Below, piece by piece: positions 1,233 to 64,000 of a DNA stretch of 64,000 bases. How positions within the stretch are numbered: the first letter of the stretch is position 1; each line of letters begins with the position of its first letter. This DNA comes from an uncultured Planctomycetales bacterium (GTDB lineage Bacteria > Omnitrophota > Gorgyraeia > Zapsychrales > JANLHA01): the NCBI GenBank assembly GCA_964450385.1, contig CAYVEC010000004.1, positions 22,148 through 86,147 of the forward strand. Reading direction: 5' to 3'. A program made the position numbers and the translations under genes. The notes beneath the pieces were generated by a model. That model saw nothing but the letters and a program-made list of their open reading frames with translations, had not been told where the DNA came from and made no database searches.

Positions 1233-1243
1233 GAGCCGGAGAG

Positions 1244-1588
1244 ATGGATCAAAAAAGACAGAAAAACGGTTGCGGCGTGTCCACGGTTGAGTATATGATT
1301 CTTTTGGTCTTCTGTTTGGCGGCGCTCGTGCTCATGTCCGGGCCGGTCCAGCGGGCGATCCAGGGGCGCTGGAAGGCGACGGCCGACACCTTCGGCCAGG
1401 GCCGGCAATTCGAGCCGTCGAGCGGCGGGGCAGCGAAAAGGACGCGAGACTATTTTTTTGATGCCGATACACAGGACTGGATCAGCCAATATTGTTTTGA
1501 TCAGCGGTGTGATTGCAGTTTTGAAGAGATCGATCCTGCCTATGACGCACAGTGTGTTCGCTGCAAGGCTGGTTGTCGGGTCCCCTAG
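1244..1588 (+). CDS. flp: Flp/Fap-family (type IVb, Tad) prepilin-like protein with an unusual Cys-rich C-terminal extension
   Basis: N-terminus MDQKRQKNGCGVSTVEYMILLVFCLAALVLMSG fits the class-III prepilin motif G/xxxxEY followed by a hydrophobic helix, typical of Flp pilins. GGAGAG lies just upstream of ATG 1244 (the track's ATG 1226 overlaps the upstream stop). The roughly 60-aa C-terminal tail contains 6 Cys (CFDQRCDCSF...CVRCKAGC), unusual for Flp pilins. Confidence 0.55.
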   Translation: MDQKRQKNGCGVSTVEYMILLVFCLAALVLMSGPVQRAIQGRWKATADTFGQGRQFEPSSGGAAKRTRDYFFDADTQDWISQYCFDQRCDCSFEEIDPAYDAQCVRCKAGCRVP

Positions 1589-3388: not shown

Positions 3389-3412
3389 CATAGAGTGACG
3401 CGTTGTGTGACA

Positions 3413-3442
3413 AGGGGACGATTATCGTCCCCTTTTGTATTT
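3413..3442 (+). terminator. Rho-independent terminator after tadC
   Basis: GGGGACGA-ttat-TCGTCCCC perfect 8-bp stem followed by TTTTGTATTT, 25 nt after the tadC stop codon. Confidence 0.6.
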
Positions 3443-3456
3443 AAAAAGGGAAAAAT

Positions 3457-3511
3457 AAATGTCCAATTTTAATGTCCAAAATGTGTCAAGAGGGGTTTTA
3501 ATGTCCAAAAC
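3457..3511 (+). promoter_or_regulatory. Cluster of direct repeats TTAATGTCCAAAA (operator-like); a fourth copy lies at 3955-3968 inside the start of the giant ORF
   Basis: Exact 13-mer TTAATGTCCAAAA at 3469-3481 and 3498-3510 with a near copy AAATGTCCAATTTT at 3457-3470; an identical TTAATGTCCAAAAT recurs at 3955-3968. Three exact copies of an AT-rich 13-mer within 500 bp of a GC-rich genome is non-random. Confidence 0.4.
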
Positions 3512-3674
3512 AGCGACGGATGCGGAAGAAAGCCCTTTCATTTTTTTGGGCGAAAAGGGTCATCCTGTCGGCTGCAAAGACCGAAAAAAATTTTTTATTT
3601 TTTTCTCGACAAAAATTTTTTTCCAATCACCAAAAGACGTTTGATTTTAAACGAGTTAAAGCATAAAAATTTTT

Positions 3675-3702
3675 TTGACCGATTTGCCCGCTCATATATA
3701 AC
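3675..3702 (+). promoter_or_regulatory. Candidate sigma70-type promoter for the giant gene (TTGACC-N16-TATAAC)
   Basis: TTGACC at 3675-3680 and TATAAC at 3697-3702 with 16-nt spacing, about 170 nt upstream of ATG 3871. It is flanked by A/T homopolymer tracts (3581-3630, 3664-3674) that could act as an UP element or bent DNA. Confidence 0.35.
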
Positions 3703-3870
3703 ATGATATACTCTTAGCGCACTAGCCCGGAGGAAAAAAGAACAGCCGTATCGCAGTTGTCAAGAACATAATTGTCCAATCACAAAAGTCGCCTGAACCG
3801 GCGACTTTCTTGTTTTATAAAAACCCCGGGCGTTTTCATAATGTACAGTCTGTAAATATAGGATTCTTTT

Positions 3871-6800
3871 ATGGACGACAGAATGGACATAAAAACGAGC
3901 GCCGAAACTGTATCCGCGTGCCATGAGCAGGCGGGTGAGGGAACGGTGCGTCTTAATGTCCAAAATACCGGGATCCTCCATGCCCCGGAAGCCGGGCATG
4001 GGTTCCAGAGCCGTTTTAAGGCCTGGATCCGGGTTGTCGCGGCCCTGATCGTCTTTGTCTTTGTGCCGGAACAGGTGAGCTGGGCCATGAGCTATAATCC
4101 GGCCGTGCTCTGGAGCCCCCAGCCGATCCCGCTCGCGGTCGGGGCCCCGGTTTCTGGACCGGACCTTGTCCCAGCTGCGCCTGAGCTTGAATTGCCCCAG
4201 GCCGAGGCTGCGGCCATGCTCGCCTCGAATATCGAGTCCCTCATGGGCCGGATCGCGCAGATGAATGCCCGGCAGATTGATCTTGAGATCGCGTCCGCTG
4301 ATCAAAAACGGTTCGCGGATATCAAGAACCTCCGTCTTTCGACCCGTAAAAGGATCGCGGCCGCGGATATCCAGGCGGCCGTGTCGTGGCTGAAACAGCC
4401 CGAGATCCATCCGCTCAACTGCGGTGTTTTTGCCGCCTATGACTTTTTAAAGCACTACAATCAGCCGGTCTCGATCGAGCAGGTCTCGCTCGCGACGCTC
4501 TCGGTGGACCTGCTGTCTGACATTATTAGGCCCGGCGACCCGACGCTGAAGACGTCACTGTTCGCGATCAACCGGGTGCTCTCCCTGTATCCCGTTAAGC
4601 ACGCGGTGATTAAGATGCATCCTGAGGCGATGCTGCGCCTCGCCCCGCCGTTTATCGCGAATTTCCAGAGCGAACACTTTGTCCTCGTGACCGGCGTCTC
4701 CGGTGAGACGCTGACGGTCCAGGATACGGGCCGCGTGCGCGAGGTCCCGATCCCAGACTTTTTGGCCCAGGCCTCGCCGTTCGTCGTGATCGCCGAGAGC
4801 GGGATCCCGGAGGGTGTTGAATATACTGAGGCTGGCGCGGCCGAGCAGGCTTATATCTGGGGTGACAAGTGGGTGGACCGGTCGGATGAACTGCCGGGTC
4901 TCATGGGCGATGTCAGCGATGTGATCCAGGACGTCTTGGTCGAAGTCGCGATCATTGTTGTATTGGCAATCATTCAGGTCCAGATGGCGCAGTGGATCCA
5001 GCGGGCGGCGGAGGGGGCCCAGCAAGCTGGCGAGGCCGCCTCGATGCTCCAAAAGCTTGCCGCCCAGATGAATAAATTAGATTATGTGAAAAATTCTGCC
5101 GACTTGGGCAAGGCGCTCGGGACGGCGATGGCAATGGTCGGGGTCAGTGATTTTGCGAATACGCTCAATCAGGTTGCAGTCCTTCAAGGCTGGTGGGATG
5201 AGGATCTGGGTTTTGTGATGAGTACGGCGATGTCCACGGTCTTGGCCGGGGCCGTCGTGGGGCCTGGAATCGATGGCGTAGTCACAGCGGCGGAGGGCCT
5301 CCCACAGAATGCTACGGGGTCTGTCATCTTGAGCGAGACAGCCAGGGGTTTTGCGAGCGGGGTCAGGTCTTCCTTCACGGCCTCTCGGATGGCCACGATC
5401 TTAGGCACGGCCGTGGTGTCGACGTCATCCAAGGTCGCCCTTCACAAGGCCCTTCCGGAGGGCATGAATCCGATCATGCGGAATTTTTTGATGGGCCTCG
5501 GCTCGAGCCTGATGACCCAGGCGGTCCTCGCGGCTGGAACCATGGCTTTTTCATCCATGAAGCAGGAGATCGGCGCCGGTAATACGGTTAAGGATCAGCT
5601 TGATCAAAAGTTGGCGGAGTGGCAAAAAAATAATCCCGGGAAGATCATGACCCCGGCCGAGAGGGAGGTCTTGGTCAACGAAGTACGCGCGGGCTTGATC
5701 GCTGGTATTAATAATGGTTCGATCGATCCAGAGTCGGCGCGAGAGGCCTTTGCCAGGGCCGAGGAGCGGGGCTACCTTGAAGAGAACGTCCCGCAGGAGG
5801 TGCGTGCTCAAATCGAGGCGGATTTTAAAGCATACGCGGCAACCCCTGCTTTTAATGAAGCGATGAATGCGTATGTTGCGAAAGCGCAAGCAAATGCTTC
5901 TTCTGGTTCGACAAACGACTTAAAAAACCTATATATTGAACAGCAACGGGGCGTCTTTACTTCTAATAAGATAGATGGGTACATCGCGTCACAGCTTGCC
6001 CTGAGCGACCGTTTTGTGAGTAAGGCGATGCAGGACAAGCGCGCGGGATGGCGGAATGAATTTGATGACAAGATAAAAGACATCGGCGTGTTGAAGGAGA
6101 TGGTCAGCCGCGGCTATTTTGATCGAACCTTTGTTCCCTTTAATACTCAAGAGACCTGGTCGTGGCTGGGGCGCAGCATGCTTTCGCAGACGATCGGGAT
6201 GAGCTTTGCCGCCGGGATCAAACTCCTCCTCGAAAAAGTTGATGAGGACACCTTCGGCCCTGAGACGGCCGTGGCCCAGGCCCTGGCCGGATTCGGGCAG
6301 ATGATGGGCGAGGTGGTGGCCCAGGGCTTTTTAACAGGCTGGAAGGCGCCGGGCGAGATCGCATCGGGCGGTGTCGAGTTTGAGCATGTGACCCAGGTCG
6401 ACGGGAAGGACATGGCGGTTGAATTGAGGGACAATGGCCAGTGGTATCGTGTGGCCGATGCGGGGAAACCTGTCGAGACGTTAACGCCGGTCGCGGTCGA
6501 ACAGATCGTCTCGCGTCCTATCGTGTATACACAATCAGGCGAAAAGGTCTATTTGACGTTTAATCCGGCAGGCGCTGTTGTTGCCCATCGTGGGTCTTCC
6601 GACGGAGAAGAGGTTGCGCTTTCCTGGAATGATCAGGGTGAGATCCTCGCAGGCCCTATAAATGGAAATGATGACGGATGGCAGAGGATGCAGGCAAAGC
6701 TGCGCCTTGCGCCATCAGTCGGCATGAACGGCCAGATCTCAGGGACGCTCGTTCAGGATCGCACCTGGGGGAAATTCCTTACGGCGAATCTTGTGCAGGC

Positions 6801-15800: not shown

Positions 15801-18800
15801 GGGTCAAAAAACGGCCCAGGCCCGAGCCGCAGAGACATTGCTCAATTATATGCAAGCGGTTGGCGCCTTTGGAAAGTATCGCGAAAACGGTCAGACGGCG
15901 TGGTTTGTCGGCAACCTTCCGGATACAGCGCGCATGGTTGAGCAGCTGCGCGGGGGGGAGAGCGTCAGAGGCAGTGACGGCAGATCGATCGATCCGTCTA
16001 AAAATGAGACGTTTGTCGCCGGGCCAGGGGGCGTTTTTTATCTCATGGATCCGCGCTCCGCTGAAAAGGGCGCGAAGGGATATGATCCTAAAAAGCATCT
16101 TGTCTTTGGCGACCGGTATGTGGATTTCAATGTTGACGGGAAACCCGGCCGGATCCTTTTGTCAGATCTTGGCCGCGGAGAGACAGACAAGGCCGAGGTG
16201 AAGGTCGTCCTCCGCTCGGGCCAGGGAGAGGCGGTCGGTTTTGTGCCGTTAAAGCGCTTTAATTTGATGAGCCGGTCGTTGGATGATTTTTTTAGTTTCA
16301 GCATGTTTTTTACTCCGGCCTTAGTATGGAGGTCCACCAAATCCGCCCTTCGTTCGTTTAGTCGGATTTCGTCGACAGCAGTGAACGAACATGGGGTTCC
16401 GGTCTTTGAGGCAAAAAGCGTTCTGGGGCATGAATTTTTTGTGGGCGGGAAGAAAGAATTGCTCCGCGGGGATTTTAAGGAAACGGCCTTAACCACAGGG
16501 GCTTCGTTTGCTCAGACATCCGCGGGCAAGGTGGTTGGGCTTGACGCGATTGATGTCTTGTTCGCCGAACCGATTTCGGCAAGGGATTTTGCGAATGCTT
16601 CTGACAAGCTGGGATTTTTTAGCAAGATCGGGCGCTTTGTCACCGGTCGTCAGGAGTCATCGGTCATGATGCAGAATTCTGACGGATCGGTATCATTCTA
16701 TAGGGCGGGGCATCAGACGAGCCGGATCGGAAGGGAACCCGAGGCGGGAGAATTTTTTAGCGATGCGGGTTTGTATCACGGCGACATTAAGAGACGGACG
16801 AATTATAATTTGGGTCTGTTAACCGGGATCGTTGACGGATTTGACGGGAACCAACGGACCGATGACGTCATTGTGGCAAGTGGTGGGTGGATCCGTCAGA
16901 TCGATTTTGATCCGGATCAGATGGGCGCCCTGTTTACGCGCGGGAAGACCGATGCGGAGGGCCGCGTTGTTGTGCCGCGCGGGCTGTGGGCCTCGGCCAA
17001 TTCGTGGGCGGCGACTGGCCGGACCCTGAATACCTTTAGCTATGTTCAGGGGGCAGGCGATGCGGTTAGTTGGGCGCTGATTGTTACGGGAATCGGCGCG
17101 GCCGTTGTTAAAGGGGTGGTCAAGGCAGGGGCGCATGCGGGTTCCAAAGTGATCATTAAAGAGATTACCAAGCAGTGGGTCTCGTATTATGGCCGGGAGA
17201 CCTTGCGGCAGCGTGCGGTTTTGACCGGGATCAATGTTGCCTTGACTGGATTTATGTCAGGCGGACAAGCTGATCTTTCAGATTATGCCGAGGCGGCATT
17301 TTTTACCGCCGCGGTGCCGTATAATTTTGTGCGGTCGGATAGTATTTCAGCGTTGATGTCCAGGGCGAAGTCTGCGCTGCGGTCGGTTCCTCTTCGGGTT
17401 GGCCCGACCACGGCAAAAGTGATTGGCGGCGTCGGAGCGGCTGCGGGCCTCGGTGTCGGCGCGTATATGTTGAAGGACGGGGTTCAGGGATGGGCTTGGC
17501 AGAGGGAAGGGGATGGTTCGGCGGGTCGTGGCTTATTGGGCTGGTATGACGGGAATAAGAAATGGATTGTTCCGGTCGCCTTTGGGCTGACCGCCTTCGT
17601 CGGCGTTAAAGGCGTTCAGTCGGCGATAGCGTCTGGGGCCTCTGGTCGTCAGACGGCTCTTCTTCTTTTGGGGTCGGCGGCTGCGGCAGGGATCGCCCTT
17701 CACCAGATGCGTAACGATTCCATGATCCAGATGTCCTCTTCGGGGGCCATGGTGGCTGCCCTTGTGATGGCAGCAGGGGGTCCCTTGTGGAAGGGTGTTG
17801 CGGGTTTTGCGGGCAGAGCGGCTCAAGCGGCGACAACAACGGCGGGCAGGAGAGCTGCGGTGGGGATCGGTGTTGGTCTTGCGGGGACTGGGGCTGCTGG
17901 TGTTTTGATTAATAGATACAATGATCGGCCCTGGTATGACGGTGATGGATTGGCCTGGGGGGTTGTCGGAACGGTCGGAGCCGCGTCGCTGATCGGGTTG
18001 TCCGTTCTTGCGGGCGCGGGGGGCCGGACAGCTCCGCGGTCGTTGCTGGCCATGGCCCGCCGGACAACGACGCTGGGGCGTGTCTTGGCGGTGGGCGGCG
18101 GAGTGGGCGGCACAGCGGTTCTCGTGAATAAACTTCAAGGCCGTTCAGCCTTTGATGTTGCCGGACTTAAGATGGCGGGCGGCGCTGCCATCGCTGGGAT
18201 CATGATTGGGGCGACGCATCGTTTCGCCCCGATGGCCTATCGCCAGTTAACGAGGCCGGGGATTCTGCTTCCCCTGACTCAGATGTCGGTCTTCCAAAAT
18301 ACAATTGATGCCCATTATGGCCTGGATCCCGAGAGCGCCTCATGGACGAGGAACGTGTTCCGGACGATTTTTTTGGCCCCTGGCCGCGGGTACATCAATG
18401 CGGTATCGTTCCATCATTATAAAGACGATGTTCGAAACTTTTTCGCCGGCCGCACCGCGGGTGAGCAGCGGATGATTATCTCGCAGGCTGAAGATCGTTT
18501 TGGCCGGTTATTAGCTAGCGGCGTTGTGTATCCGATCGCTTATGGGCGCGCGATGGTGAGCGCCCTCACAGGTTCATGGCAGGCGGACACGATCCTTTCT
18601 CCGTGGAACACAGTGAAGGCGGTGCTCGATCCGTTGCGTATCCCTGAAAAGGGGGCCAAGGCGCAGATGGATCAGGACGAATCGTTCACCTTGGCGCATG
18701 GCACATGGCTGATCGCGAGTCTGCTCGGGGCCAGGGCTGGTTTTCGAGGATTTAAATCGGGGTCAGGCGCCACGGCTGATCCAGGGTTTTGGGCAAGGAC

Positions 18801-51800: not shown

Positions 51801-54800
51801 CTCGATCCTTGAAGGAGACCAGGTCTGGTTTGATGCCTTGCGTAATGCCGTTCGGTCTGAGGGCAATCCGTCAGGACTTCTGGATGCGGAGGTAACAAGT
51901 ATTTTTGTTGCGCCGCTGGATATCGCTGAAGCCCCTGCCCAGGTGGCGGCGCAGAAGGAGGAGACTTTTGAGGCCGAGGTAAGAAGGGCCAATGAGGACC
52001 GGATCGCGTATGTCTCTGATCAAGAAACAATGGCGATGTTATGGGAAATTCGTATTGTCGGATTTGTGAAGGCCTTTACGAAATTTGATGCTGTCAGGAT
52101 TCAGTCCTTTATTAAACATATTGACTCTGATGCGGTCTCTTCATGCACGATCACTGATGAGGAGCGACGGCACATCTCAGCAGAGATCAGCCGCGTTATC
52201 AGCGAGGATGAGACGATCGCGGATAAAAGGTCTGCTAATCGGACGGCTCAGGATGTCCTTTCCGCGTTGAGCGGCCATGAAATTAAAGTCCTCTTGTTCT
52301 TCCAGCAGGTTCTTTTCACACAGATGCTTCAGCGGTTGGCCCTTCGATCAATGAAGAACAACAAGCCGCTTCCGATGAATCGCCGGACTCCGGACGGAAA
52401 AAAGGCCGATACGATCACGCGCGTCGCCAATTCCTTAAAAGAGATGATCGGCGCGGCGGACTATAAATATACCATTATCAATTCCTATGATCCCACTCTT
52501 CAAAAACTTGAACGGGCCAAGCGGCAATTCTTCGTTTATGTCTTTTCAGACCTGTTGCGGGCTGCTGAGCAGCGCGGGAATCTCCCGGCCGGCAATAGTA
52601 TCGCAGCCCTTCTTGGGCGAATGGCGAATGTTGATGATGAAGAGGCTTGTTGGGCCGCTTTGGATGAGGCGGCACGTCTTCTCGAAGCGGCTGTGAAGAA
52701 CGGATTAGCAGGGTCATCAAAATTGAGCATCTTTTCGGGCCCGTCTGCCGGCGGCAAGGGCGAGATGTGGAGCGCCTGCTGCAGCCGGTATCCGAAGCTG
52801 TTTAGAAAATTAATGCTGTATGCTGATCATGATCGGGAGCCCGATGGCAAGGGACGCCGTTTTGCTTCGGTGACGAAGAACGATGGCGTCCTGTTTGAGG
52901 ATCTTATTGAGTATCTTCGGGCGCCGCAGAACGCGAAACCGAACATCACGGCTTGGGGTCATAAAAAGGTCATTATTGCCGCGGCATCTGTTTTGAAGGG
53001 ACAGCAGTTCATTCGTATTTACACGGCCCTGATGCGGATCTTGTCTAATAAGAAGATGGATCCAAAGGTACTGGCTGGGGTGAAAAAGGCTGTTCCGGTT
53101 TTGATTGCTGCGCTCGCCATTCCTGATCTCACCGGCGTCGTTAAGGACCTTTCCGATAAGTATCAGGGCATCAAGACCACGGCAAAGCTAATCATCTATT
53201 CCGGCCCGCCCGGTGGAGGCAAGAGCCTGGTCTGGGATGGTTTTCAAGCGGGCATGAAAGAACTTTTTGATCGAGGGCTTGTTGATAAGTTTATTTTATT
53301 CCACACGCGAGGTATTCGCCAAGGCGAAACGCAAGGCAAAGAGTATCATTTCCGCACGGAGGCGCATCTAAAGGAATTGGAGAGAAGAGGGCTCATTATT
53401 ACGGCGGTCGTTAATGACCAGCTGCAGGGCTTAGCTTTGGTAGATTTTGAGGATGAATTTGACGATCCTACTCAGGGCGGGGTGACGAATAAAGCGCAGA
53501 TCGCGGGCTTGGCATCAAAACTCATTCAGGATAAGATCACCATCCTCGAGGGCGGATTGGGGTGGTTTGATCAATTAAATGTGTTTTTTGCGGATCGGAT
53601 GGCTTCCCGGAGCGAGTTTGCGGGTGTCAATAATGATGGATTGATGAGCATTTTTGTCTCGCCTTTTACAGAAGACAGGATTAAGGAGATTGAAAAGGCG
53701 CACGCGGATGAGATCGTGAAGATGCAGCGAGGATATGAGCGGGGGATCGCGTTGCACGAAGAGGAGTATCAGGCCGCGGTGGCCAGGCAGGCTATCCTGA
53801 AACCGGAAATTGAATCGTTGATCGCTCAGGGCAGAGAGGCATTAGCAGCAGCGTGGCCGAATTTAAAAACACGGATGTTTGATATGATGGGTCACGCCGC
53901 CTTTGATGAGGATGTTCAGGCGGCCAGTAAATCGGCGACGGGCAAGGACGAGAGCGCAACGAAAGAGGGCGCTCTACGCATGGCGTCACAGCGTGAAACC
54001 GTTATTCGTATTCATAAGAGAGAAACGGGTGAGGCTAAAAAAGTCATTGACACTGTCGAGCAGATGATTAAAAACGGTGAACTCGACAAGATACAGGGGT
54101 TATTGGGAAAGACAGACACTATTCGCAAGGTTCTGTATACGCCGATCAAGGAAAAGGAATTAAGAGATCGTGCCGCTGAGGCCGGAACGCAGGTTATTCG
54201 GCGCGGTGATTATCATACCCGTCTTTATAATATCTTTAAAAAGACGGACGACGAAGTTAAGAAATTAAAGCTCGAGCTGGGTACTGATTTTGCGATTGCC
54301 GCCCTCGTGAATTTATATCAAAAAATGGAAGCCCTAAAGGCCCGTCGTCAAAATACCCCTGACCAGCATGCAGAGGCCCGTCAACAGACGGTTGCCAACA
54401 ATCCTGATGTTCACGCTCCTCCGGCGCAGGCCCAGGGCGCAGAGCGCGCACCTCAGCCCCGCTCGCAGGACAGGGGCATGCTGGGCAGGGCGGATCGGCG
54501 CGAGAATCGCTCAGACGCTGCTCGGCCGATTCCTAATCGGTCGATGCCGCAGGCAGAGGTTGTGACCGCCGAGATCGCACGACATGATTTAAACACATTT
54601 ATTGCCTTAGGGCCGAATAACGCGATGGTCAAGTTAGCCATGTCGATGCTCCGTGCGGTCGGCAAGGGCGAGAAGGCGGATAAGCTCGAATGGATGTCGA
54701 GGGCCGGATTGGTCCGGGCGGGCCCGGTTGAAGGGATCCTGGCCACAACAGCGGCCATTAATGGCTTAGAGGCGATTGTCCTTTCGAATGCGTATCCGGC

Positions 54801-57800
54801 ATACAACACAATTATTGAGCATGCTTTAAGTCTTGTCCACGAGATCGGGGCCGTTGCGCCATTTTATGTTGATCACGCCGGTAATGAGCTGCGCGAATTT
54901 ACCGCCCGCAGTTGGTTGCATCGAGATGAAAATGGGCGGAAGGCGGCAGAAGCGGCCATGCAGGATCCGGCGTTTTCTGCTTTTGTTGGGCTTGAGATCG
55001 CCAAGAGGATTCACAGCCGCGAGGTAAAGGAGGCGGATAAGGTCGCGACGCGATCACGAGAGAATCAGGCGGCGGGCAAGAAGGCGCAGAAATTTTATGT
55101 TCCGACGCCTCAAAAAGAGTTTGTCAAACGTATCAGTGAGGCCGTTGTGCAGGTTGCTCGGCGGCACGAATATAAGAAGGTCTTGGTGAACACGTGGGCT
55201 AACAGCGAGGCTGAATATGAGGAGCTGATCGAGCGGCTGACCGAGGAGTTCGCGCTGACGATTTTCCGCAACATCGCCCGTGCTGTCGGGATGACAGGGA
55301 TCGATCATTTATCGGCAAAGGACCTGGCAGACAGGATCCGCGTGATCGATCTGAGTCAATATGATACGATCGCAAAATTTGTGATTTACAGCGGTCCGCC
55401 TGGCGGCGGCAAGGGGGCAGTATGGGATCGGTTTGAAGAGTTATATGGCGATATGATCAGTAAGTTTGTCTTGTTCCATACGCGCAATATTCGCGACGGC
55501 GAGCAGATGGGCAGGAATTATCATTATCGTAATGAGCAGGCACTTGATGATCTGGCCGTCCAAGGAAAGATCATCACCGCTTTAATTAATGGACAAAAAC
55601 AAGGGATGGCGATCAAAAGTTTTTCTGATCAATATTCATACATTGATCCGCAAACGAAAAAACAATATGACGGGACGGCAGACGTCTTCGGGCTGGAAGG
55701 GGTCTTTAAAGGAAATAAAATTGTGGTGTTGGAATGCGGACTGGCGTGGTTCGAAGCGCTTTATAAGCAGTACGATGACGAATTGACGAGCATTTTTATC
55801 TCGCCGTTCAGCGATCGGGAGATCGAGGATGCGGTGAATGATATGGAGAAAAGCAGGGCCGCCTTTATTGGTCTAGAGATTGCAAAACGCATTCACAGCA
55901 GGGAGGTCAAGGAGGCAGAGGTGGTGGCGAAAGAGAACGCCCTCAAACAGGAGAAAGACGAGGCGATCTCGAAATTCTATCTGCCTACCCCGCAGAAGGA
56001 ATTTGTTAATCGGATCATTGAGGCCTCGGTCCAGGTGGCCCGCCGTCATGAATATCAGGAGGCCCTTGTTAATACGTGGGCCCATAGCGAGGCAGAATAT
56101 GTGGCTATGATCGAGCGATTGACGGAGCAATTCGCCGTAACTATTTTCCGAAAGATCGCGGATGCGGTCGGGATTCCGTACACACCATCGACAACGGCCC
56201 ACGAGCTCGCCGAGCGGATCCGAGCCGTCGATCTAAGCCAGTATGACACGATCGCGAAATTCGCGATCTATAGCGGACCGCCCGGCGGAGGGAAGGGCGC
56301 GGTCTGGGATCGGTTCAAAGAGCTTTATGGTGACATGGTGGATAAATTTGTTCTCTTCCATACACGGAACATCCGCAAGGGTGAAAAGATGGGCGTGAAT
56401 TATCATTATCGCAATCCAGGCCCATTAAAGTCGTTGGAGCAAGAGGGCGGGGTGATCACGGCGTTAGTGAATGGGCAATTACAGGGTTTGGCGGTTGAGA
56501 GCTTCCAAGACAAGTATGGGTATGTTGATCCCCAGTCTGGCGAGAGACATGAGGGTGAGACGTTCATCTCCGGGCTCGATCGAGTCTTTGCCGGAAAGAA
56601 GATCGTCATTCTTGAGTGCGGGCTGGCCTGGTTTGAATCCCTTCACCAGAAGTATGGCGACGCGCTGACGAGTATTTTTATTTCGCCGTTCAGCGATAGC
56701 GAGCTCGCGTGGGCAGAGGAGAGCCTTGTTGATCAACAGAGCCTCCTGACCACGGAAGAGGCTCGAGAGCTGGTTGGATATTTCCATGGTCAAGGCGCAG
56801 AGCTTATTGCCCAGTTGTTCCGGTGGCAGGTTGAGTATTATTTTAAATTAGGAAAGAGCTTAACGCTTGTGCAGATGCTTCAACAGGAGTATTTCGAGCT
56901 CTTGGATGAGAACGGGAACATGACGGGAACTGTCAAGCCGCGCGGGCTGGTCCATTATGACGGCGATTGGCACCGTGATATCCGTGTCATCATGGTGAAT
57001 CATCGCGGTGAAATGCTTATTCAAAAACGTGGGAATCAAAAGGATATTGAGCCTGGTCTTTTTGCAGAGTCAGTAGGGGGGCACACCAAATTAGGCGAGA
57101 GCTATGATCAGAATGTTCATCGTGAGATACGTGAAGAGATCGGCGTTGATCAGATTGATGAACGGCGGCTGGAACGGCTAGGCGTCTTTAAGGACAAAGT
57201 GTTCGGGGCCAGGCACGCGATTAACCGGTCTCACTATGCCGCATATGTGTATGTCATGAACCCGGAGGAAGAGGCGAGGATTGTTATTGATTACGCCGAT
57301 GGGATCGCCGCTGCGTTCTGGGTGCCGATGGCAGAATTGAGGGCCCAGATCCTGGCCGCCCCTGAGGCGTATACAAAATCATTGGTCAATGCGTTCACGG
57401 ATGGTGAGAGTTTTGAAAAACTGTCCGGGTTCGTCGCCCAGGCCGTACATGGCAGGGATTCGGGGATGATCGGCGCCGAGGATGATCAGAGGTCATCGGC
57501 TGTGTCAGGAGGCGGGAAAAAGCTCATTATTTATTCGGGCCCATCCGCTGTCGGCAAGAGCCCGCTTTGGGAGCAGGTCGCGAGGCGGTATCCGGGGGTT
57601 TTTGAACGGGTCGTTCTCTATCATTCACGACTGCCCCGGGCCGGAGAGATCGATGGTGTTCATTATAAATTTACGACGCCCGAGCACATTCGCGATGTTT
57701 TGATACGGACGCCTACCTTTATTGATATTGAGCTCAATGGAGAGCTACACGGCCTGGATATCCGAGATGTCGATGCGGCGATCGCCGGGAACAAGATCGG

Positions 57801-60800
57801 CGTGGCCGAGACGTGTGTCGCATTAGCGCAAAAACTCAAAGAGCGGTATCCCGCGATCGTGTTTACGATCTTTATTTCTCCGTTAACGGATGAGGAGATC
57901 GAACGCCGGAAGGCCGAGGGGGGCAAGACAGAGGAAGAGGTGATTTATGAGGAGATGCGGCGGCGGCAAGAAGAGCGGAACCGGGAGATCCCGATCGAAG
58001 AGAAAAAGCGGGAGGCGCGGGCCCGAACGGCTGTGACAGAAATGGCGCGTCGGCATGATTATGATGCGATGATCGTCATCTCGGATCTGCGTGATATTAA
58101 GGCTCATGCGGATCGCTGGCAGGGAGAAGAGGGGTCGGCCCTCGTTGAGCATTTTATGGGATTGGTCAGAACCGCGGCAGGGATCACCGTCGGTGGGGCA
58201 GGGGAGGCGGAGACAGATCAGGGGATGATATCAGAAGGGGATCAGGCGCTCGTTGAGGATATAGTGACGGTTCTTTCTTGGAGTGCGGAACGACAAACAA
58301 TTCCAAACGGATTTGATCTTTTGTGGATTATGGGCTCACCGAATCGCAGGACCCCAGGGACAGCGATCCAAATTTTAAAGCATCACCCTGAGGCCAAAGT
58401 CCTTATTACGGGCGGTACAGGGAAGAATAATATGCAGACGCCGGAGTGGTTCCTTGCGGGAAGACCTCTTTTTGCAAAGGCGGCTCAATATCTTGATCAG
58501 GCCTTGGATGCCCTGGATAAAATGAGGTCCACAGACGAGGAATTATTCTGGAACATAATGAAAGAGCGTTTTGGCATTTCCCGCGGTGCGGGTTCGGCCA
58601 AAGACCATTCTAATGAGCGATATCGATGGGATATTATTGTGGGACTCAAAGGATATCAGTGCCTCTCTCGATTAAGAAACACAACGATCGAGGAGGCGGT
58701 TTTAGATGACCTGCTTAATAGAGAGACTCGTCCCCATACATTTGTTCCTGAGGCGATGCTCTATTACGCCGTTTTAGCAGCAGAAGGGGTTCCGGAAGAG
58801 AACATGGTCATGGAGTGCCAATCGACGTCTTCGCTTGAGAATATTGAATTTGGCGCCACGTCATTAAAGGTAAACAACATTAGCCCGCGAGATATTGTTC
58901 TGATCCAGCAGGGATATAATCAGCGTCGAGGCAGATTGACGTTTCAAAAGAACTTTCCGAAATTTTTCCCGAATTGGCAAGGGACCGTGACAAGCTGGGC
59001 TGGTCATTTATTTGATGGCAGCGATGGAGCCGATGAATTCGATCTCCATCAAATACGAGATCCAGAGCAATTAGAGTATTGGCGCCAAAGAGCAGTCCGC
59101 GAGGTTGAAAGGATTTTAAATTATGCGGGCCAACATGATGAAAATATTATTGTAAAGGAGCCGGTCCCTGCACAAGTATTTGATGCGGCAAAACGTCTTG
59201 TTGCGGGTAGGGAGAATGAAGGGTGGCACAACGCAGAGCGCGAGTATCGATCATCTAATAATGGGCCCAATAAAGATGAAGGCATGCTGGCCGCTGACGA
59301 TGCAAGAAGAGATGATGGGCTGAAAGGCTTTGGATCGAGCTCTGTCCAGATGCAAACATATTCAGACTTGGCCGGGACATTTGAGGATGATATCACGCTT
59401 GGTGTTCGGGTCGATCAAAAAGGCCCGATCAAGGTAACGGTGCCGGTCCTTAAAGAGAGGCGAAACCCTGTTCGCGAAAAACGAGTTCAGGAGATCGCGG
59501 CGTTATTTAATGAGGCGTTTGTCTTATTAGAGGAGACCGTTTCAACAATAGGGGCGGAAGAGCTGAAGGTGCATTATAGCGGATTATTGGCTCATCCGCA
59601 GAACAAGAGCCCGCCAGCCGATAAGCCTCAGAACATCGTTCGCTTTAGCAGGGAATTGCGTCGCGATTCGGCGCGTTATTTTAATAAGAATGCCCACCGG
59701 GTTGAGTTTATTTTTAATGTGGACTTTATCGATCAATTATTGAGCGGGCATGCGGATCATTCTAAACCCGTTCAGTATATTCTGGCCCAGCGCCTGTTCC
59801 ATGAGATCGGGCACAATAACGACAAAACGAATTTATATGGTCAGGTCCGGGAAGAGTTCGAAATGGTCATCTGGGACCTCAAGCTGTTCGAGCTCTATGA
59901 ACGGATTGGGGCTACCGCAGGGATTAGTGCGTATTATATGCAAGAATTTCCGAACGGCACGGGATTTATCAATCGGACATTTAGGGAATTAGCCAAGACG
60001 AATAGCGACCTGAGGGATCAGGCTCAGCCGCTTTATAAAGCGGTGAAATCGGCCCTAACAGAGATGAATGCGATTGAAGAATTACCGGAGAAAGAGGTAG
60101 GGGCTTTTGTTCAAGAGTTCAGGACCAAATATCCCGCCGTGTATGAAGAGATGGGAGAGGCGGCACGAGTCACCTTTGTCAACATCTTAGAGTGCGTGCG
60201 GCGAGAGACCATTCCTTATGAGGGGGGATACATACGGACCATTATCAAGCTTTCGCGGATGATGAAGGCTAAGCCGGAGCTTTTGCTTCAGTTGAGGGAT
60301 AAGATCGATGAGCTTGAAAGGGTCGAGAATGAGGCGTTGGTGGATTATGTTAAAAATACTCGATCCGTTCATGGGGCCTATGATTTGGCAAATGACGAGG
60401 CTCTGAGGGACAGGGTTCGGGGGCGGGTTGATTATGTACGGGGCAGTTTAATGCCGGCGTTCCAAATACAGTTGCCGGCTGCGCGGCCGTATACATTCTT
60501 GCAGGATTATATGAGCCAGTTAAACATCCGCGCTAATATTGTTGCTGCCGAGAATCTGTTTTATTTGACCGGGACGCAGCAGGTCAGCGTGGTCCCCTGG
60601 CGGCATATTAATCTTCTCAATTTCCGCGGAAATGGCGATGGGACGATTCGTCAATATTTGAATTTCGCGATGAATTGGAGCCAGGCTCTTGGATTCGGGA
60701 TGACACGGGCGGAGAATAATATCGGAGGCCGACAGCGGCCGCACACGCATCCTAATGTCGAGCGCACCCTTTCTCTTTCGGATGATACCTTTGTTGTGAA

Positions 60801-63800
60801 CTATGCCAGGATCATGCAGGATGTGATCCTTGAGTTACAAGAAAAGGCCGGCATCTTAAAAGGCGAGGCCCAGGGGGGCGCGCTTTATAGAGCGATTACG
60901 GCAGCCTTGGCCGCTGATGTGATCGAACGCTTTGGTTCCGGACTGGCAGCGGCCAAGTTTTTGACGGAAGTTGCGTCAGAGAAACCTCACAAAGACTTTG
61001 TTGCTGTAATGAAGGCATGCGAGCGGTTAAGTGATTTAGAAAAAATGGAATTTTCAAGGGCCATAGAGTATATATCGGCACATGTTGCCAAAAGATTGCC
61101 GGAGCTTGAGGCCAAACACGGATTCTCATTAAAGTTCGCCCATATTAGTTATATTCCGCCAGAGGTCTCTCATTATATTAAGAACTCCAGCGGTTCGGTG
61201 CCTAGTGCTGACTGCACCATGAAGGACCTCTTTTTGCAGTTGTATAAGATTGTCGGGACTCCGGGGACGCAGGCGAGCGTTGAAAGTCTTCCGCCGAGGA
61301 CAGAATCACGGCACGACTGGGGCGAGGTTTTTGAACAGGTCCTGACAGAGGTCACGTCAAAAGTAGCGACCGATCCTAACGGAGAAATATACTTTGCTTA
61401 TGATGCGCGCGGGCGATACAACCCGATTTCAGTCGAAAGGGTGGCGCTGCGGGAGACGCTGATTACGGTCAGACCGGGCCAGCAGACAATGACTTTCGAT
61501 ATGGCACGTTATTTTGGCAAGCCGATTGGAGATGGAGTTTATATCGTCGCTCTTCAGCCGTGGCCGAAGGTTGTGCCCGAGCATTGGATGTTTGTTGATC
61601 CTGCAAAAGGGAACGCTCCCGTAGATCCGAAACGCCTCGTGTGTCAGATAGAGCTCTTTACCTCAGGAAGTTTAACACCGGTAGATGTTAAGACGCTGCG
61701 CGGCGGTGAACAGTTGGTGATTAACAATCGCGAGTCGCGCGAAAAAATTACACACATGAGGATTCGAAATGACTCAGAAAATATTAATAGCCATGAAGAC
61801 GCTTCAACGATCGTCATTTTAATTCCAGGTATTGAGGAGGACAATCCATTAAAGTGTTTTGGCGGACAGTCCTTTGTTGGGGCTGATTATGGGATGACGG
61901 GCGATGCGTTTGAGCAGGATTCGCGATTCATCGAGATGGCCGAGACATATTTCACAGGCGACAGGGACGCGACTAGGAAGGCGCTCATTTCTTGGCAAGA
62001 GGGATTTAAGAGCCGTTTAAATAAGGACGTCTCGATCGAACAATTGTTAAACGTGAAGATCGCGGAAGACCAGAAAGGGGCCACGGAATATTTTTATGTT
62101 CTTAATGCTGATGGGACAAGGACCGGACAGATCAAGCCGCGTCACCTTGTTCATCGAGACGGAGACTGGCACGCGTCTGTTTATGTGATGCTTTTTGACA
62201 AAGAAGGGAATGTTATTCTTCAGCGTCGATCCAAGAATCGGCAGACGGATCCTTTCAGGCTTGATGGCGCGGCCTGTGGCCATACCGCTCTTGAGCTTGA
62301 TTATCGAAAAGCGGCGGCCAAGGAGGCGAATGAGGAATTAGGGCTTGAGATCGAGCCACAGGACCTTATTTTAATCGGCCGAGAGAATCAGTATCTTGAT
62401 GTTTTTGATATGGTGGATAGGGATGGAAATGAGCTCCACAACAGAGGCATGACAACGGTTTTTGCCTACGTGCTTCCTGACGGCATAACATCGCAGGACC
62501 TGCGTTTTAGCAGGGAAGAGGTCGACAGCCTGGAAAGCCGGCCGTTTGCTGACGAAGTGTGGCGCGTTCAGCAACTGCCGGGCGACTATGCGACAGTTAA
62601 GAATTTCCTTCAGCCGGGGTCTGAGGTCGTCCGGCTCCTTGGGGAAGCGTTTGAGAACGAGGTGCGCCAGCGTCTTGAGGCTCCTGGAATCTTCATCAGT
62701 GATAAAGATGGTACGATCGTAGAGGCCAGCGAGGCGATCGATCCGGAGATGCTGCAGCAGTTGATGGTGCTGCTCGGTTTGAATATGCACGTGATGATCC
62801 TGACCGGTGCTATTTTTGAACATGGGCTTGCGACGGTGATCGACCCGATCGAGGCCGAGGCCCGGCGCCGTGGCCTGGCAGATCGTCTGCCGAACATCCG
62901 GTATTACTTTATCAGCGGCAATGGATGGATGACATGGGATCAGGAAGGCCGGCGCGCGATCCGTTATATTGAGCAGAGGTTCTCTGACGATGAGCTTTGT
63001 ATCATGGCCGTGAGTTTGGCGTCCTCGTTTATGGATGGCGTTGGGGAGAGGGCCGGCGGCGAGATCATTCTTGAGCCGTATCGCTCTCGGATTGACGCCG
63101 TGCGGTCGATCACGGAAGCGCAGCAGGTCTTCGGGGAATTCATTGAAAGGAATATTGAGACGACCGGTTTTGTCCGGATCGATAATGGCGATGATCGCAT
63201 GGTCATTCTCGAATTAAAGGCCTCACAGCACCGGCTTGCCCGGCCGGCATGGCGTCGAGATGATTTTGTGAGGGTTGTGTATGAGCGCGCATTGTCGCGC
63301 CTCACGGAGCGTGGGGTTACGGTGCCGGTCCATCATTATGGCGCGACGTTCATTGATTTCAACCAGCGCAACAAGAAAGAAACGTTCCGCAGGATCATGG
63401 ACGAGCCGGCCTTCCGGAGGTCTCCGGTCTATGCCTTTGGAGATGGGGCCAATGACTACGAGTTTTTGAATGATCCGGTATCTTATGGCCGAAAGAAGGC
63501 CTTCCTTGTTCGGGCGCCGCAGAGCGGATCCGAGGAACGATTAAAGAATGTCACGATCTGGAGAGCAGAAGGACCCGCAGGCACGAAGGAGATCATTAAG
63601 TCTATTGTTTTTCCTGAAATGATCGGACGAAGGTGGGGCATGGGTGTTGGTAAGGATATCGCGGAGATGATGTCGTTCTTCGGCGGCGACATCGAAAGGG
63701 CCCGCGGGGCCTTGATCGGGTGGCAGCGTGAGTTGAAGGAAAAGATCGGTCAGGACAAGAGCCTCGAGCAGATGACGACCTTTAAGGATGACGCGCATTC

Positions 63801-64000: not shown

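What the first reader, a model, noticed from the sequence alone, without database searches (positions are those of the whole stretch)
3871..64000. Single unterminated ORF of over 60 kb (at least 20,043 codons): a giant gene
Frame 1 of the + strand is open from ATG 3871 to the last base of the window. The ORF track, which otherwise reports every ATG-to-stop ORF of 60 aa or more, has no frame-1 + entry anywhere in this span. The simplest explanation is one ORF lacking a stop inside the window. Codon usage is coding-like throughout and recognisable protein domains occur along its entire length, so this is not a stop-free non-coding artefact. Genes this size are extremely rare and have been reported mainly in uncultivated host-associated bacteria such as Omnitrophota. 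The true length is unknown because the 3' end lies outside the window.
Basis: seen in the sequence. Interest (0 to 1): 0.95.

Follow-up and report, generated by a model that had tools for sequence, protein, structure and literature searches.

The report
Omnitrophota giant gene, over 60 kb
The window really does contain one unbroken gene of at least 20,043 codons, but it belongs to an already described class: the membrane-threaded giant proteins that Omnitrophota bacteria encode next to a Tad-type pilus/secretion locus.

Summary
The + frame holding ATG 3871 has no stop codon from 3862 to 64000, where about 500 to 850 would be expected by chance. Coding periodicity and synonymous codon usage are uniform along all 60 kb, and there are no repeats that could have been collapsed in assembly.

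The gene sits directly downstream of two T2SSF (TadB/TadC-like) genes. It opens with a conserved transmembrane helix and a C39 cysteine-peptidase domain with its catalytic residues intact. In 55 of 82 related loci, nearly all labelled Omnitrophota, the same gene head lies downstream of the same TadC-like gene. In 49 of those 55 its ORF runs off the fetched DNA.

This matches the published Omnitrophota giant genes (Seymour 2023; West-Roberts 2023; Nielsen & Lui 2026). Those papers report thousands of proteins of 10,000 aa or more, up to 147,155 aa.

- The first 15,000 aa have only a weak C39 hit and a degenerate M23 domain.
- The last ~4,300 aa carry HEAT, five guanylate-kinase-like, three Nudix, DUF218 and HAD modules.

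Most of the body has few or no detectable homologues. One feature I did not find in the literature is extreme cysteine depletion, with an 8,312-aa stretch free of cysteine.

Verdict: real, and a new member of a known kind.

The parts
18..1232 (+). C-terminal part of a large conserved protein of the Tad-like locus. Its ORF is open to the window start and it is Cys-rich. It corresponds to a 1,376-aa gene in locus L001.
   Evidence: 26% identity to L001 5282-6202. No Pfam hit.
1226..1588 (+). Small Cys-rich protein with a Flp/TadE-like 'G-VSTVEY' motif followed by a hydrophobic helix; a putative pseudopilin.
   Evidence: Sequence. Homologous ORFs occupy the same position in L001 and L002. No Pfam support, so the assignment rests on the motif alone.
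1625..2482 (+). TadB-like platform protein (T2SSF domain).
   Evidence: PF00482, 67.8 bits. 56% identity to the syntenic gene in L001.
2504..3388 (+). TadC-like platform protein (T2SSF domain).
   Evidence: PF00482, 51.6 bits. It has 233 relatives in GTDB genomes; the best 80 (50-68% identity) are nearly all Omnitrophota MAGs.
3389..3870 (+). 482-nt leader or intergenic region. It has terminator-like hairpins at 3412-3434 and 3785-3808, and promoter-like sites at 3675-3712 and 3814-3842.
   Evidence: consensus matches only. Not conserved at the DNA level in relatives. No Rfam family.
3871..64000 (+). Giant ORF of >=20,043 codons with no stop. Its 3' end lies outside the window.
4015..4071 (+). 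Conserved N-terminal transmembrane helix or signal anchor (aa 49-67), followed by the conserved motif PEQ.SWA.
4348..4845 (+). C39-type papain-like cysteine peptidase domain (aa ~160-325), with Cys184, His269 and a downstream Asp.
   Evidence: Pfam PF03412 scores 20.7 bits, just below its cut-off of 22. All 7 database homologues carry PF03412. The motifs IHPLNCG and EHFV are conserved in >=80% of 54 homologues. The AF2 core has pLDDT 67-93, and its best PDB folds are the double-glycine proteases 6mpz, PCAT1 and ComA, with TM ~0.7.
4423..29358 (+). Cysteine-free stretch of 8,312 aa (aa 185-8496).
4933..5262 (+). Hydrophobic (TM-like) segments at aa 355-373 and 446-464.
   Evidence: Kyte-Doolittle, 19-aa window, >=1.6; a crude method.
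17053..18018 (+). Cluster of TM-like segments (aa 4395-4716).
30478..31143 (+). Cluster of TM-like segments (aa 8870-9091).
32464..38454 (+). ~2,000-aa module (aa 9532-11528) collinear with an Omnitrophota protein fragment (HRZ39514.1). It is more distantly similar to a 3,545-aa protein of Ca. Zapsychrus exili.
32752..32991 (+). Degenerate M23/LytM-like domain (aa 9628-9707) that lacks the HxxxD and HxH zinc ligands.
   Evidence: PF01551 scores 33.8 bits against a cut-off of 28.7. Alignment to LytM 2b44 and the raw sequence show the ligands missing.
45745..47529 (+). Cluster of ~7 TM-like segments (aa 13959-14553).
   Evidence: The word-index search found no homologue for aa 13901-15900.
49549..50706 (+). 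Cluster of 5 TM-like segments (aa 15227-15612).
51100..51294 (+). HEAT repeats (aa 15744-15808).
   Evidence: PF13646, 32.1 bits against a cut-off of 27.7.
52717..57975 (+). Five guanylate-kinase-like P-loop modules, with P-loops at about aa 16290, 16445, 17175, 17469 and 17890. This span includes an in-frame 882-nt tandem duplication at ~54976-56739 (~75% DNA identity).
   Evidence: PF00625, 97.5 bits. TIGR03263 matches four stretches, 141 bits against a cut-off of 160. Repeats.
56971..57348 (+). Nudix domain 1 (aa 17701-17826), IDI/YfcD-like, with an intact Nudix box.
   Evidence: PF00293, 53 bits. NF002995 scores 112 bits, below its cut-off of 127. Sequence.
58744..58983 (+). DUF218 domain (aa 18292-18371).
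   Evidence: PF02698, 31.5 bits against a cut-off of 27.6.
59800..59814 (+). The only HExxH motif in the ORF (HEIGH, aa 18644). It may mark an unannotated metallopeptidase.
   Evidence: motif only.
62170..62550 (+). Nudix domain 2 (aa 19434-19560).
   Evidence: PF00293, 39-42 bits.
62692..63474 (+). HAD-IIB (Cof-type) phosphatase-like domain, with DKDGT and GDGAND motifs.
   Evidence: TIGR01484 and PF08282, both below their cut-offs. Motifs visible.
63823..63999 (+). Start of a third Nudix-like module (aa 19985-20043), cut off by the window end.
   Evidence: Self-similarity to aa 19359-19468 and 17633-17728.

Best explanation
This is the 5' 60 kb of a genuine single giant gene of an Omnitrophota bacterium. 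It is the positional orthologue of the giant gene found across that phylum directly downstream of a Tad-type (TadB/TadC, pseudopilin) pilus/secretion locus.

What is shown:
- The product begins with a conserved membrane helix and a catalytically intact C39 cysteine peptidase.
- It carries roughly 26 hydrophobic segments, in six or seven clusters.
- About 15,000 aa are fast-evolving, globular-looking, almost cysteine-free sequence with no recognisable families apart from a degenerate LytM domain.
- A C-terminal array of nucleotide-handling modules follows: five guanylate-kinase-like, three Nudix, DUF218 and HAD, together with HEAT repeats.

What is inferred:
- The protein is inserted co-translationally into the cytoplasmic membrane.
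- The cysteine-free N-terminal two thirds are mostly displayed outside the cell as an envelope coat or contact surface. This surface would work with the adjacent Tad machinery in attaching to and exploiting a host or prey cell, as proposed for Velamenicoccus archaeovorus.
- The nucleotide-dependent enzyme modules stay on the cytoplasmic side.
- The C39 domain may process the giant protein or a partner.
For: Real single ORF: there are no stops in 20,046 codons, against 506-855 expected. Frame-specific GC pattern holds throughout. RSCU correlates at 0.87-0.93 among the three thirds and 0.71-0.81 with the upstream genes, against 0.44-0.64 for out-of-frame controls. There are no tandem or long repeats apart from one 75%-identical 882-nt duplication.

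Family and taxon: the only database homologues of the first 1,500 aa are 7 C39-carrying proteins; the four that carry a source name are all Omnitrophota/Omnitrophica. The TadC-like gene has 233 relatives, the best 80 almost all Omnitrophota MAGs. In 55 of 82 loci the homologous gene head lies downstream of the TadC-like gene, and in 49 of those 55 the ORF runs off the locus end, at up to 3,258 codons.

C39 domain: residues are conserved and the predicted fold matches.

Cys depletion: 0.14% observed against 1.44% expected from composition. The gene heads of 42 relatives have 0.18%, against 2.7% in their upstream ORFs.

A mid-body module is conserved at 26-34% identity in other Omnitrophota proteins, which indicates protein-level selection.

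Published descriptions of the same kind report C39 N-termini, many TM helices, gspF/Tad flanks, HEAT/NUDIX/HAD content, poor conservation, and proteomic detection in V. archaeovorus.
Against: - No expression or read-coverage data are available for this locus.
- The SecA_DEAD domain reported in most full-length giants was not found in the visible 20,043 aa. It may lie beyond the window.
- The only cell-wall-hydrolase-like domain (M23) lacks its zinc ligands. No glycoside hydrolase or glycosyltransferase passes threshold. The cell-wall-degradation part of the published model therefore has no direct support here.
- TM calls come from a crude hydropathy scan, so the inside/outside assignment is inference.
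- The phylum assignment rests on best hits, not on marker genes.
Confidence: 0.8

Rival explanations
1. Polyprotein reading. The ORF is translated as one chain and then cut into many independent proteins, by its own N-terminal C39 peptidase or another protease. On this reading the 'giant protein' never functions as a single molecule.
For: A catalytically intact C39 domain is conserved at the N-terminus. In some relatives (L001, L002, L015, L062, L073, L080) the homologous gene head ends after 576-2,265 codons. In L001 the next gene overlaps the stop of the first (12904 against 12907), as in translationally coupled separate genes, so equivalent modules can exist as separate proteins. The body looks like a string of unrelated globular modules. 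West-Roberts et al. raise the same idea.
Against: The canonical double-glycine leader motif is not enriched: 1 strict match against 1.5 expected, and 5 loose matches against 5.5. GG dipeptides are in fact depleted, 127 against 161 +/- 12. No recurring linker or cleavage motif was found among repeated 6-mers. The split genes in relatives could also be assembly frameshifts.
Confidence: 0.2
2. Assembly or sequencing artefact. Several genes, or two strains' genes, were joined or frame-corrected into one apparent ORF.
For: Overall GC falls from ~0.58 to ~0.51 after about 44 kb. The locus could not be found in public contig collections, so it could not be cross-checked.
Against: The GC drop lies mostly in codon positions 1 and 2, reflecting amino-acid composition: less Ala and Gly, more Ile, Phe and Lys. 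GC3 and RSCU stay consistent. A stop-free 60 kb cannot arise from joining unrelated sequence. There are no repeats to collapse or mis-join on. Orthologous loci in dozens of independent assemblies show the same open-ended ORF.
Confidence: 0.03
3. A different class of very large bacterial gene: an NRPS/PKS megasynthase or a repeat-built adhesin (RTX, Bap, Ig-like or dockerin/TSP3 type).
For: These are the commonest causes of very long bacterial ORFs (general knowledge).
Against: No condensation, adenylation, KS, AT, PP-binding, cadherin, Ig-like, RTX, dockerin or TSP3 hit appears at E <= 1 anywhere in 20,043 aa. There are no tandem DNA repeats. Self-similarity is confined to aa 16280-20043.
Confidence: 0.01

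Closest known systems
Omnitrophota giant proteins with an N-terminal C39 domain next to Tad/T2SS genes. These are the 'Archaeovorin'-type of West-Roberts et al. 2023 (bioRxiv 10.1101/2023.11.21.568195), and the PF03412 architecture cluster and 'multi-enzyme' class of Nielsen & Lui 2026 (bioRxiv 10.64898/2026.06.07.730766).
   Same: - Omnitrophota affiliation.
- A gspF/TadBC genes-then-giant-gene order.
- An N-terminal TM/signal segment plus a C39 domain.
- About one TM helix per 770 aa.
- HEAT, NUDIX, HAD, peptidase and kinase-like content.
- Very few annotated domains and near-singleton sequence.
- No nucleotide tandem repeats.
   Different: - No SecA_DEAD, glycosyltransferase, methyltransferase or glycoside hydrolase domain in the visible part.
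- The enzyme content is dominated by guanylate-kinase-like and Nudix modules.
- The M23 domain is degenerate.
- Total length is unknown (>=20,043 aa, against their >30,000-aa 'giant' set).
Velamenicoccus archaeovorus LiM giant protein: 39,678 aa, 42 predicted TM helices, detected by proteomics (as summarised in Seymour et al. 2023, PMC10066038).
   Same: Same phylum. It is linked to a Tad complex, threads the membrane, has sparse domains, and is proposed to form a surface coat used when attached to a host or prey cell.
   Different: Homology beyond the N-terminal ~500 aa is unlikely given how quickly relatives diverge. There are no expression data for this locus.
C39 double-glycine peptidase domains of PCAT/AMS ABC transporters (LahT150 6mpz, PCAT1, ComA).
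   Same: Papain-like fold (TM ~0.7) and a conserved Cys/His/Asp.
   Different: Here the domain is not fused to an ABC transporter. It lies after a TM helix at the head of a giant protein. No double-glycine leader substrate is evident.
Degenerate LytM domains (EnvC, NlpD, SpoIIQ).
   Same: M23 fold signature with the metal ligands lost. 4bh5 (EnvC) and 3uz0 (SpoIIQ) appear among the weak PDB matches.
   Different: The domain is embedded in the middle of a giant polypeptide. A role in peptidoglycan binding or hydrolase activation is only an analogy.

Membership tests
Omnitrophota Tad-linked giant proteins (West-Roberts 2023; Seymour 2023; Nielsen & Lui 2026) | Encoded in an Omnitrophota genome | tested here: met
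   The homologues of the N-terminus that carry a source name are all Omnitrophota proteins. The best 80 relatives of the TadC-like gene are nearly all Omnitrophota MAGs, at up to 68% identity. This is a best-hit inference; the window contains no marker gene.
Omnitrophota Tad-linked giant proteins | Very long single ORF (>20 kb in Seymour; >=10 kAA in Nielsen & Lui; >90 kb for the West-Roberts 'giant' set) | tested here: met
   60,129 nt and 20,043 codons with no stop. This meets the first two thresholds. The >90 kb threshold cannot be judged because the 3' end lies outside the window.
Omnitrophota Tad-linked giant proteins | Preceded by type II/IV secretion or Tad pilus genes (gspF/TadB/TadC, class III signal-peptide proteins) | tested here: met
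   Two T2SSF genes lie at 1625-2482 and 2504-3388. The gene order is the same as in L001. The homologous gene head lies downstream of the TadC-like gene in 55 of 82 loci.
Omnitrophota Tad-linked giant proteins | N-terminal C39 (or S8) peptidase near a signal/TM segment | tested here: met
Omnitrophota Tad-linked giant proteins | Numerous transmembrane helices | tested here: met
   26 hydropathy peaks in clusters. The method is crude and at least two peaks (aa 8521, 11891) are doubtful.
Omnitrophota Tad-linked giant proteins | Divergent SecA_DEAD / preprotein-binding domain (present in 'most', reported near the C-terminus) | tested here: inconclusive
   No PF07517 hit at E <= 1 in aa 1-20,000, and no SecA among the PDB sequence hits. 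The C-terminal part of the gene is outside the window.
Omnitrophota Tad-linked giant proteins | Followed by PilZ genes, solute-binding proteins and glycosyl hydrolases | not testable with these tools
   The 3' flank is outside the window. The contig was not found in public collections.
Archaeovorin subtype (West-Roberts 2023) | Domain set of GT, methyltransferase, GH, peptidases, NUDIX and HEAT | tested here: inconclusive
   HEAT, NUDIX (three), a peptidase (C39, plus a degenerate M23) and HAD are present. No GT, MT or GH passes threshold; GH44 reaches only E = 0.006 at 16.9 bits.
Dockerin-type giant proteins | Many dockerin / TSP3 repeats | tested here: not met
   No PF00404 or PF18884 hit. 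No tandem repeats.
Peptidase C39 (double-glycine bacteriocin-processing peptidases) | Papain-like fold with a catalytic Cys and His (plus Asp) | tested here: met
   Foldseek's best hits are 6mpz, PCAT1 and ComA. C184 and H269 are invariant in alignment A1. The Pfam score of 20.7 is just under the cut-off of 22.
Peptidase C39 | Acts on a substrate with a double-glycine leader; fused to an ABC exporter | tested here: not met
   No ABC transporter domain is present. The GG-leader motif is not enriched in the giant ORF. The substrate is unknown.
Peptidase M23 (LytM/lysostaphin) | HxxxD and HxH zinc-binding motifs | tested here: not met
   The HMM hit is above its cut-off (33.8 against 28.7), but both motifs are absent in the sequence and in the alignment to LytM. 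The domain should be filed as a degenerate LytM domain, not as an active peptidase.
Guanylate kinase (TIGR03263 equivalog) | Score above the equivalog cut-off; P-loop and GMP-binding residues | tested here: not met
   The score is 141.2 bits summed over four stretches, against a cut-off of 160.45. P-loops are intact in all five copies, but the YG(S/T) GMP-site motif is altered (compared with the motif from memory). The modules are GK-like kinases of unknown specificity.
Isopentenyl-diphosphate isomerase type 1 | Score above cut-off; catalytic Cys in the NSVCGHP motif | tested here: not met
   NF002995 scores 112 bits against a cut-off of 127. The sequence reads ESVGGHT, with no Cys (the reference motif is from memory). 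The Nudix box is intact, so a Nudix hydrolase is more likely.
NRPS/PKS megasynthases | Condensation, adenylation, KS, AT and carrier domains | tested here: not met
   No such Pfam or NCBIfam hits.

The most novel reading that the evidence does not exclude
The near-total absence of cysteine, including an 8,312-aa Cys-free run that starts right after the catalytic Cys of the C39 domain, is conserved in the orthologous gene heads of 42 other genomes, while the neighbouring genes are Cys-rich. On the most novel reading, this marks a physical division of one polypeptide between two compartments. An exported, disulfide-free N-terminal ~15,000 aa would form the host-contact coat. A cytoplasmic C-terminal array of guanylate-kinase-like, Nudix and HAD enzymes would handle nucleotides. 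A single chain would then couple the contact surface to nucleotide salvage from the host. I did not find this compositional rule in the three papers I read.
Probability: 0.2. Interest if true: 0.6.

Novelty: new member of a known kind. Interest (0 to 1): 0.3.

Why it matters
Giant genes test the limits of transcription, translation, membrane insertion and folding, and their function in Omnitrophota is still unproven. This locus adds a cleanly assembled, repeat-free example of more than 60 kb with the canonical Tad-locus and C39-head context. It also has an unusual, nucleotide-centred enzyme tail.

It does not change the picture, because thousands of such genes are already catalogued. Two points are worth carrying forward:
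- The conserved cysteine depletion is a cheap, alignment-free signature. It could be tested across the published catalogues as a proxy for topology.
- The only 'cell-wall hydrolase' domain here is catalytically dead. That cautions against reading Pfam names as support for the cell-wall-degradation model.

Tried and rejected
**Finding the source contig or a close relative, to extend the ORF downstream.**
- Exact 60-mer scans of genome contigs and metagenome contigs found nothing.
- An exact-protein look-up of the TadC-like gene found nothing.
- A protein-pattern scan of metagenome contigs with the last 1,000 aa found nothing.

**Whole-protein homology searches.**
- Queries of 5,000 and 3,500 aa timed out.
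- aa 13901-15900 and the last 2,000 aa gave no hit at E <= 1e-5.
- PDB sequence searches of four 5,000-aa chunks found only LytM, guanylate kinases and IDI/Nudix.

**Structure of the conserved mid-body module (aa 10690-11350).**
- Only a helical bundle was predicted confidently, and it had no significant PDB fold match.

**Test of the polyprotein hypothesis.**
- Enrichment of the double-glycine leader motif was negative.

**Chimera hypothesis prompted by the GC drop at ~44 kb.**
- Rejected on GC3 and RSCU consistency.

**Other searches that led nowhere.**
- Structured RNA or a catalytic intron inside the ORF or in the leader: none in Rfam at gathering thresholds.
- DGR-type template/variable repeat pairs or inverted repeats: none.
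- Internal terminators and promoters in the first 20 kb: no more than chance.
- Conservation of the 482-nt leader: none.
- NRPS/PKS and repeat-adhesin readings: rejected for lack of any domain hit or repeat.
Full report
**1. Observation**

The + frame containing position 3871 has 48 stop codons, all at or before 3859, and none from 3862 to 64000. That is 20,046 open codons. The other two + frames carry 861 and 1,344 stops, and the longest open stretch in any other frame is 1,227 nt.

The first start codon is ATG 3871, preceded by an AGGA about 8 nt upstream. Alignments to homologues begin at residue 1, with consensus 'MD...'. The start and the figure of 20,043 complete codons are therefore both sound.

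From the ORF's own position-specific base frequencies, 506 stops would be expected (log10 P of none = -222). From window mononucleotide frequencies, 855 would be expected. Every 1.5-kb bin shows the coding pattern of GC1 > GC2 with high GC3, 0.50-0.73.

**2. Is it an artefact?**

Total GC falls from about 0.58 to about 0.51 after ~44 kb. That could suggest a chimeric join. However, the drop sits mainly in codon positions 1 and 2. It reflects amino-acid composition: Ala falls from 12% to 9% and Gly from 10% to 7.5%, while Ile, Phe and Lys rise.

Relative synonymous codon usage correlates at 0.87-0.93 among the three thirds of the ORF. It correlates at 0.71-0.81 with the small upstream gene set, and at only 0.44-0.64 with out-of-frame controls.

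There are no tandem repeats and no long direct or inverted repeats. The one exception is an in-frame 882-nt duplication whose copies are only ~75% identical. Nothing is therefore available to collapse or mis-join on. Read-level evidence is not available.

**3. Context and relatives**

Four genes lie upstream:
- The C-terminal part of a large unannotated protein (18-1232).
- A 120-aa Cys-rich protein with a Flp/TadE-like G-VSTVEY motif (1226-1588).
- Two T2SSF-domain genes, TadB-like and TadC-like (1625-2482 and 2504-3388).

The first 1,500 aa of the giant have only seven database homologues. All carry PF03412 (C39), and the four that carry a source name are all labelled Omnitrophota/Omnitrophica. 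They align only over roughly aa 45-520. One of them sits on a 348-kb contig in the same gene order: large protein, 121 aa, T2SSF, T2SSF, then the C39 head.

A scan of GTDB species genomes with the TadC-like protein gave 233 relatives. The best 80 (50-68% identity) are almost all Omnitrophota MAGs.

In 55 of the 82 loci held, the giant's N-terminus (28-45% identity) lies 0.3-3.5 kb downstream of the TadC-like gene. In 49 of those 55, the ORF runs off the end of the fetched DNA, at up to 3,258 codons.

Beyond aa ~600, almost nothing aligns even in the closest relatives, L010 and L011. The gene is thus the positional orthologue of a phylum-wide giant gene with a conserved head and a variable body.

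**4. Anatomy**

*N-terminus.* A conserved hydrophobic helix (aa 49-67) is followed by the motif PEQ.SWA. A C39 papain-like peptidase follows. Its IHPLNCG (Cys184) and EHFV (His269) motifs and a downstream Asp are conserved in >=80% of 54 homologues. An AlphaFold model built on an 8-sequence alignment is confident for aa ~160-325. Its best PDB matches are the double-glycine proteases LahT150, PCAT1 and ComA, with TM ~0.7.

*Membrane segments.* A Kyte-Doolittle scan finds about 26 TM-like segments. They cluster at aa 355-464, 4395-4716, 8870-9091, 13959-14553 and 15227-15612, with a few isolated ones.

*Body.* Pfam and NCBIfam find essentially nothing in the first 15,000 aa apart from the weak C39 hit and an M23/LytM hit at aa ~9628-9707. 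That M23 domain lacks both the HxxxD and the HxH zinc-ligand motifs. It is a degenerate LytM domain, not an active peptidase. Amino-acid composition is ordinary and globular-like throughout.

*Tail.* aa 15,700-20,043 contain:
- HEAT repeats.
- Five guanylate-kinase-like P-loop modules.
- Three IDI/YfcD-like Nudix modules with an intact Nudix box. They lack the IDI catalytic Cys (reference motif recalled from memory).
- A DUF218 domain.
- The only HExxH motif in the ORF.
- A Cof-type HAD domain with DKDGT and GDGAND motifs.

The ORF is still open, inside a third Nudix-like module, at the window end.

**5. How unique is the body?**

Word-index searches with aa 13901-15900 and with the last 2,000 aa gave no hit at E <= 1e-5.

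A full HMMER scan of aa 10001-11200 against 1.84 billion representative proteins gave only 8 hits. The best is a 2,532-aa Omnitrophota fragment annotated as 'M23 family metallopeptidase'. It is collinear with aa 9532-11528 at 26-31% identity. Another is a 3,545-aa protein of Ca. Zapsychrus exili.

The body is therefore coding sequence under protein-level constraint, but it is close to a sequence singleton. This matches the published finding that 80% of such proteins cluster alone.

A structure prediction of the conserved part gave a confident helical bundle with no significant PDB match.

**6. Cysteine depletion**

The ORF has 29 Cys in 20,043 aa, or 0.14%. Its base composition predicts 1.44%. 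There is no Cys at all between the catalytic Cys184 and aa 8497. The enzyme-rich tail has about 0.4%.

The four upstream genes have 1.8% overall. In 42 relatives the giant-gene heads have 0.18% Cys, against 2.7% in their upstream ORFs.

Neither giant-gene preprint mentions cysteine. From general knowledge, strong Cys avoidance is typical of exported or surface proteins. I take it as indirect support for an extracytoplasmic location of the N-terminal two thirds.

**7. Mechanism**

*Shown:*
- One ORF with a conserved head (TM helix plus active-looking C39).
- Conserved linkage to the Tad locus.
- Many hydrophobic segments.
- A Cys-poor, fast-evolving body.
- A nucleotide-enzyme tail.

*Inferred, with help from the literature:* the product is a membrane-threaded envelope megaprotein that works with the adjacent Tad machinery in contacting and exploiting a host or prey cell. 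In V. archaeovorus, a 39,678-aa homologue-in-kind is detected by proteomics and is more abundant in attached cells.

The cell-wall-degradation part of the published model has no direct support in the visible part of this gene, because the M23 domain is dead and no GH or GT passes threshold.

Whether the C39 domain cuts the giant chain is open. The canonical double-glycine leader motif is not enriched. However, in a few relatives the equivalent gene is split into adjacent genes.

**8. Comparison with what is known, and novelty**

All defining features that could be tested are met:
- Omnitrophota origin.
- An ORF of more than 20 kb and more than 10 kAA.
- A gspF/TadBC upstream flank.
- An N-terminal C39 domain.
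- Many TM segments.
- Sparse HEAT, NUDIX and HAD content.

SecA_DEAD was not found, but it is reported near C-termini, which lie outside the window. The downstream PilZ flank cannot be tested. Dockerin-type, NRPS/PKS and repeat-adhesin classes are excluded.

Such genes are described by Seymour et al. 2023 (PMC10066038), West-Roberts et al. 2023 and Nielsen & Lui 2026. The last of these reports 3,650 proteins of >=10 kAA in its own samples, a maximum of 147,155 aa, and a >=10 kAA protein in 93.8% of complete Omnitrophota genomes.

This is therefore a new member of a known kind. It is real and well formed, but it would not surprise a specialist. The interest score is 0.3.

Noticed in passing
window 4423-29358 (aa 185-8496), and loci L003-L082 gene heads: Extreme cysteine depletion of the giant ORF: 0.14% observed against 1.44% expected, with an 8,312-aa stretch free of Cys. 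It is conserved in 42 relatives (0.18%), while their neighbouring upstream ORFs have 2.7% Cys. It is not mentioned in the giant-gene papers I read.
   Followed up: partly
window 32752-32991: The M23/LytM-like domain scores above the Pfam cut-off but lacks the HxxxD and HxH zinc ligands, so it is probably non-catalytic. Its closest database relative is nevertheless annotated 'M23 family metallopeptidase'.
   Followed up: yes
window ~54976-56739: An in-frame tandem duplication with a period of 882 nt (294 aa). The copies are ~75% identical in DNA and 66% in protein, and each carries one guanylate-kinase-like P-loop module. It is the only sizeable repeat in the 64 kb.
   Followed up: partly
window 1226-1588: A 120-aa protein with 8 cysteines and a Flp/TadE-like 'G-VSTVEY' prepilin-type motif followed by a hydrophobic helix. 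It has no Pfam hit. Homologous small ORFs occupy the same position in L001 and L002.
   Followed up: partly
L001 10001-22907; also L002, L015, L062, L073, L080: In a few relatives the homologous C39-headed gene ends after 576-2,265 codons. In L001 it is followed by further large ORFs (1,943, 738 and >2,265 aa), the first of which overlaps the stop of the C39 gene. These are either genuinely split versions of the giant gene or frameshift errors in those assemblies.
   Followed up: no
window 3389-3870: An unusually long (482-nt) leader between the TadC-like gene and the giant gene. It has two terminator-like hairpins (3412-3434, 3785-3808) and promoter-like sites. Relatives also have long leaders (366-1,481 nt) but without DNA conservation, and there is no Rfam match.
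   Followed up: partly
loci L003, L005, L007, L022, L051, L052, L078 and others: Many GTDB MAGs that carry the Omnitrophota-type TadC-like gene are titled 'uncultured Planctomycetales', and others Gammaproteobacteria, Lysobacterales, Planctomycetales or Elusimicrobia; several of the 'uncultured Planctomycetales' ones (e.g. L003, L005, L007) also carry the C39 giant-gene head, whereas L022, L051, L052 and L078 showed no head hit. The record labels look unreliable for this lineage.
   Followed up: no
window 59800-59814 (aa 18644-18648): The single HExxH motif (HEIGH) in 20,043 aa lies in an unannotated stretch between the DUF218 and Nudix-2 modules. It may mark an unrecognised metallopeptidase.
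   Followed up: no
window 1-64000: GC skew is positive in every 2-kb bin (0.03-0.25), including the upstream genes. G exceeds C on the coding strand along the whole window.
   Followed up: no
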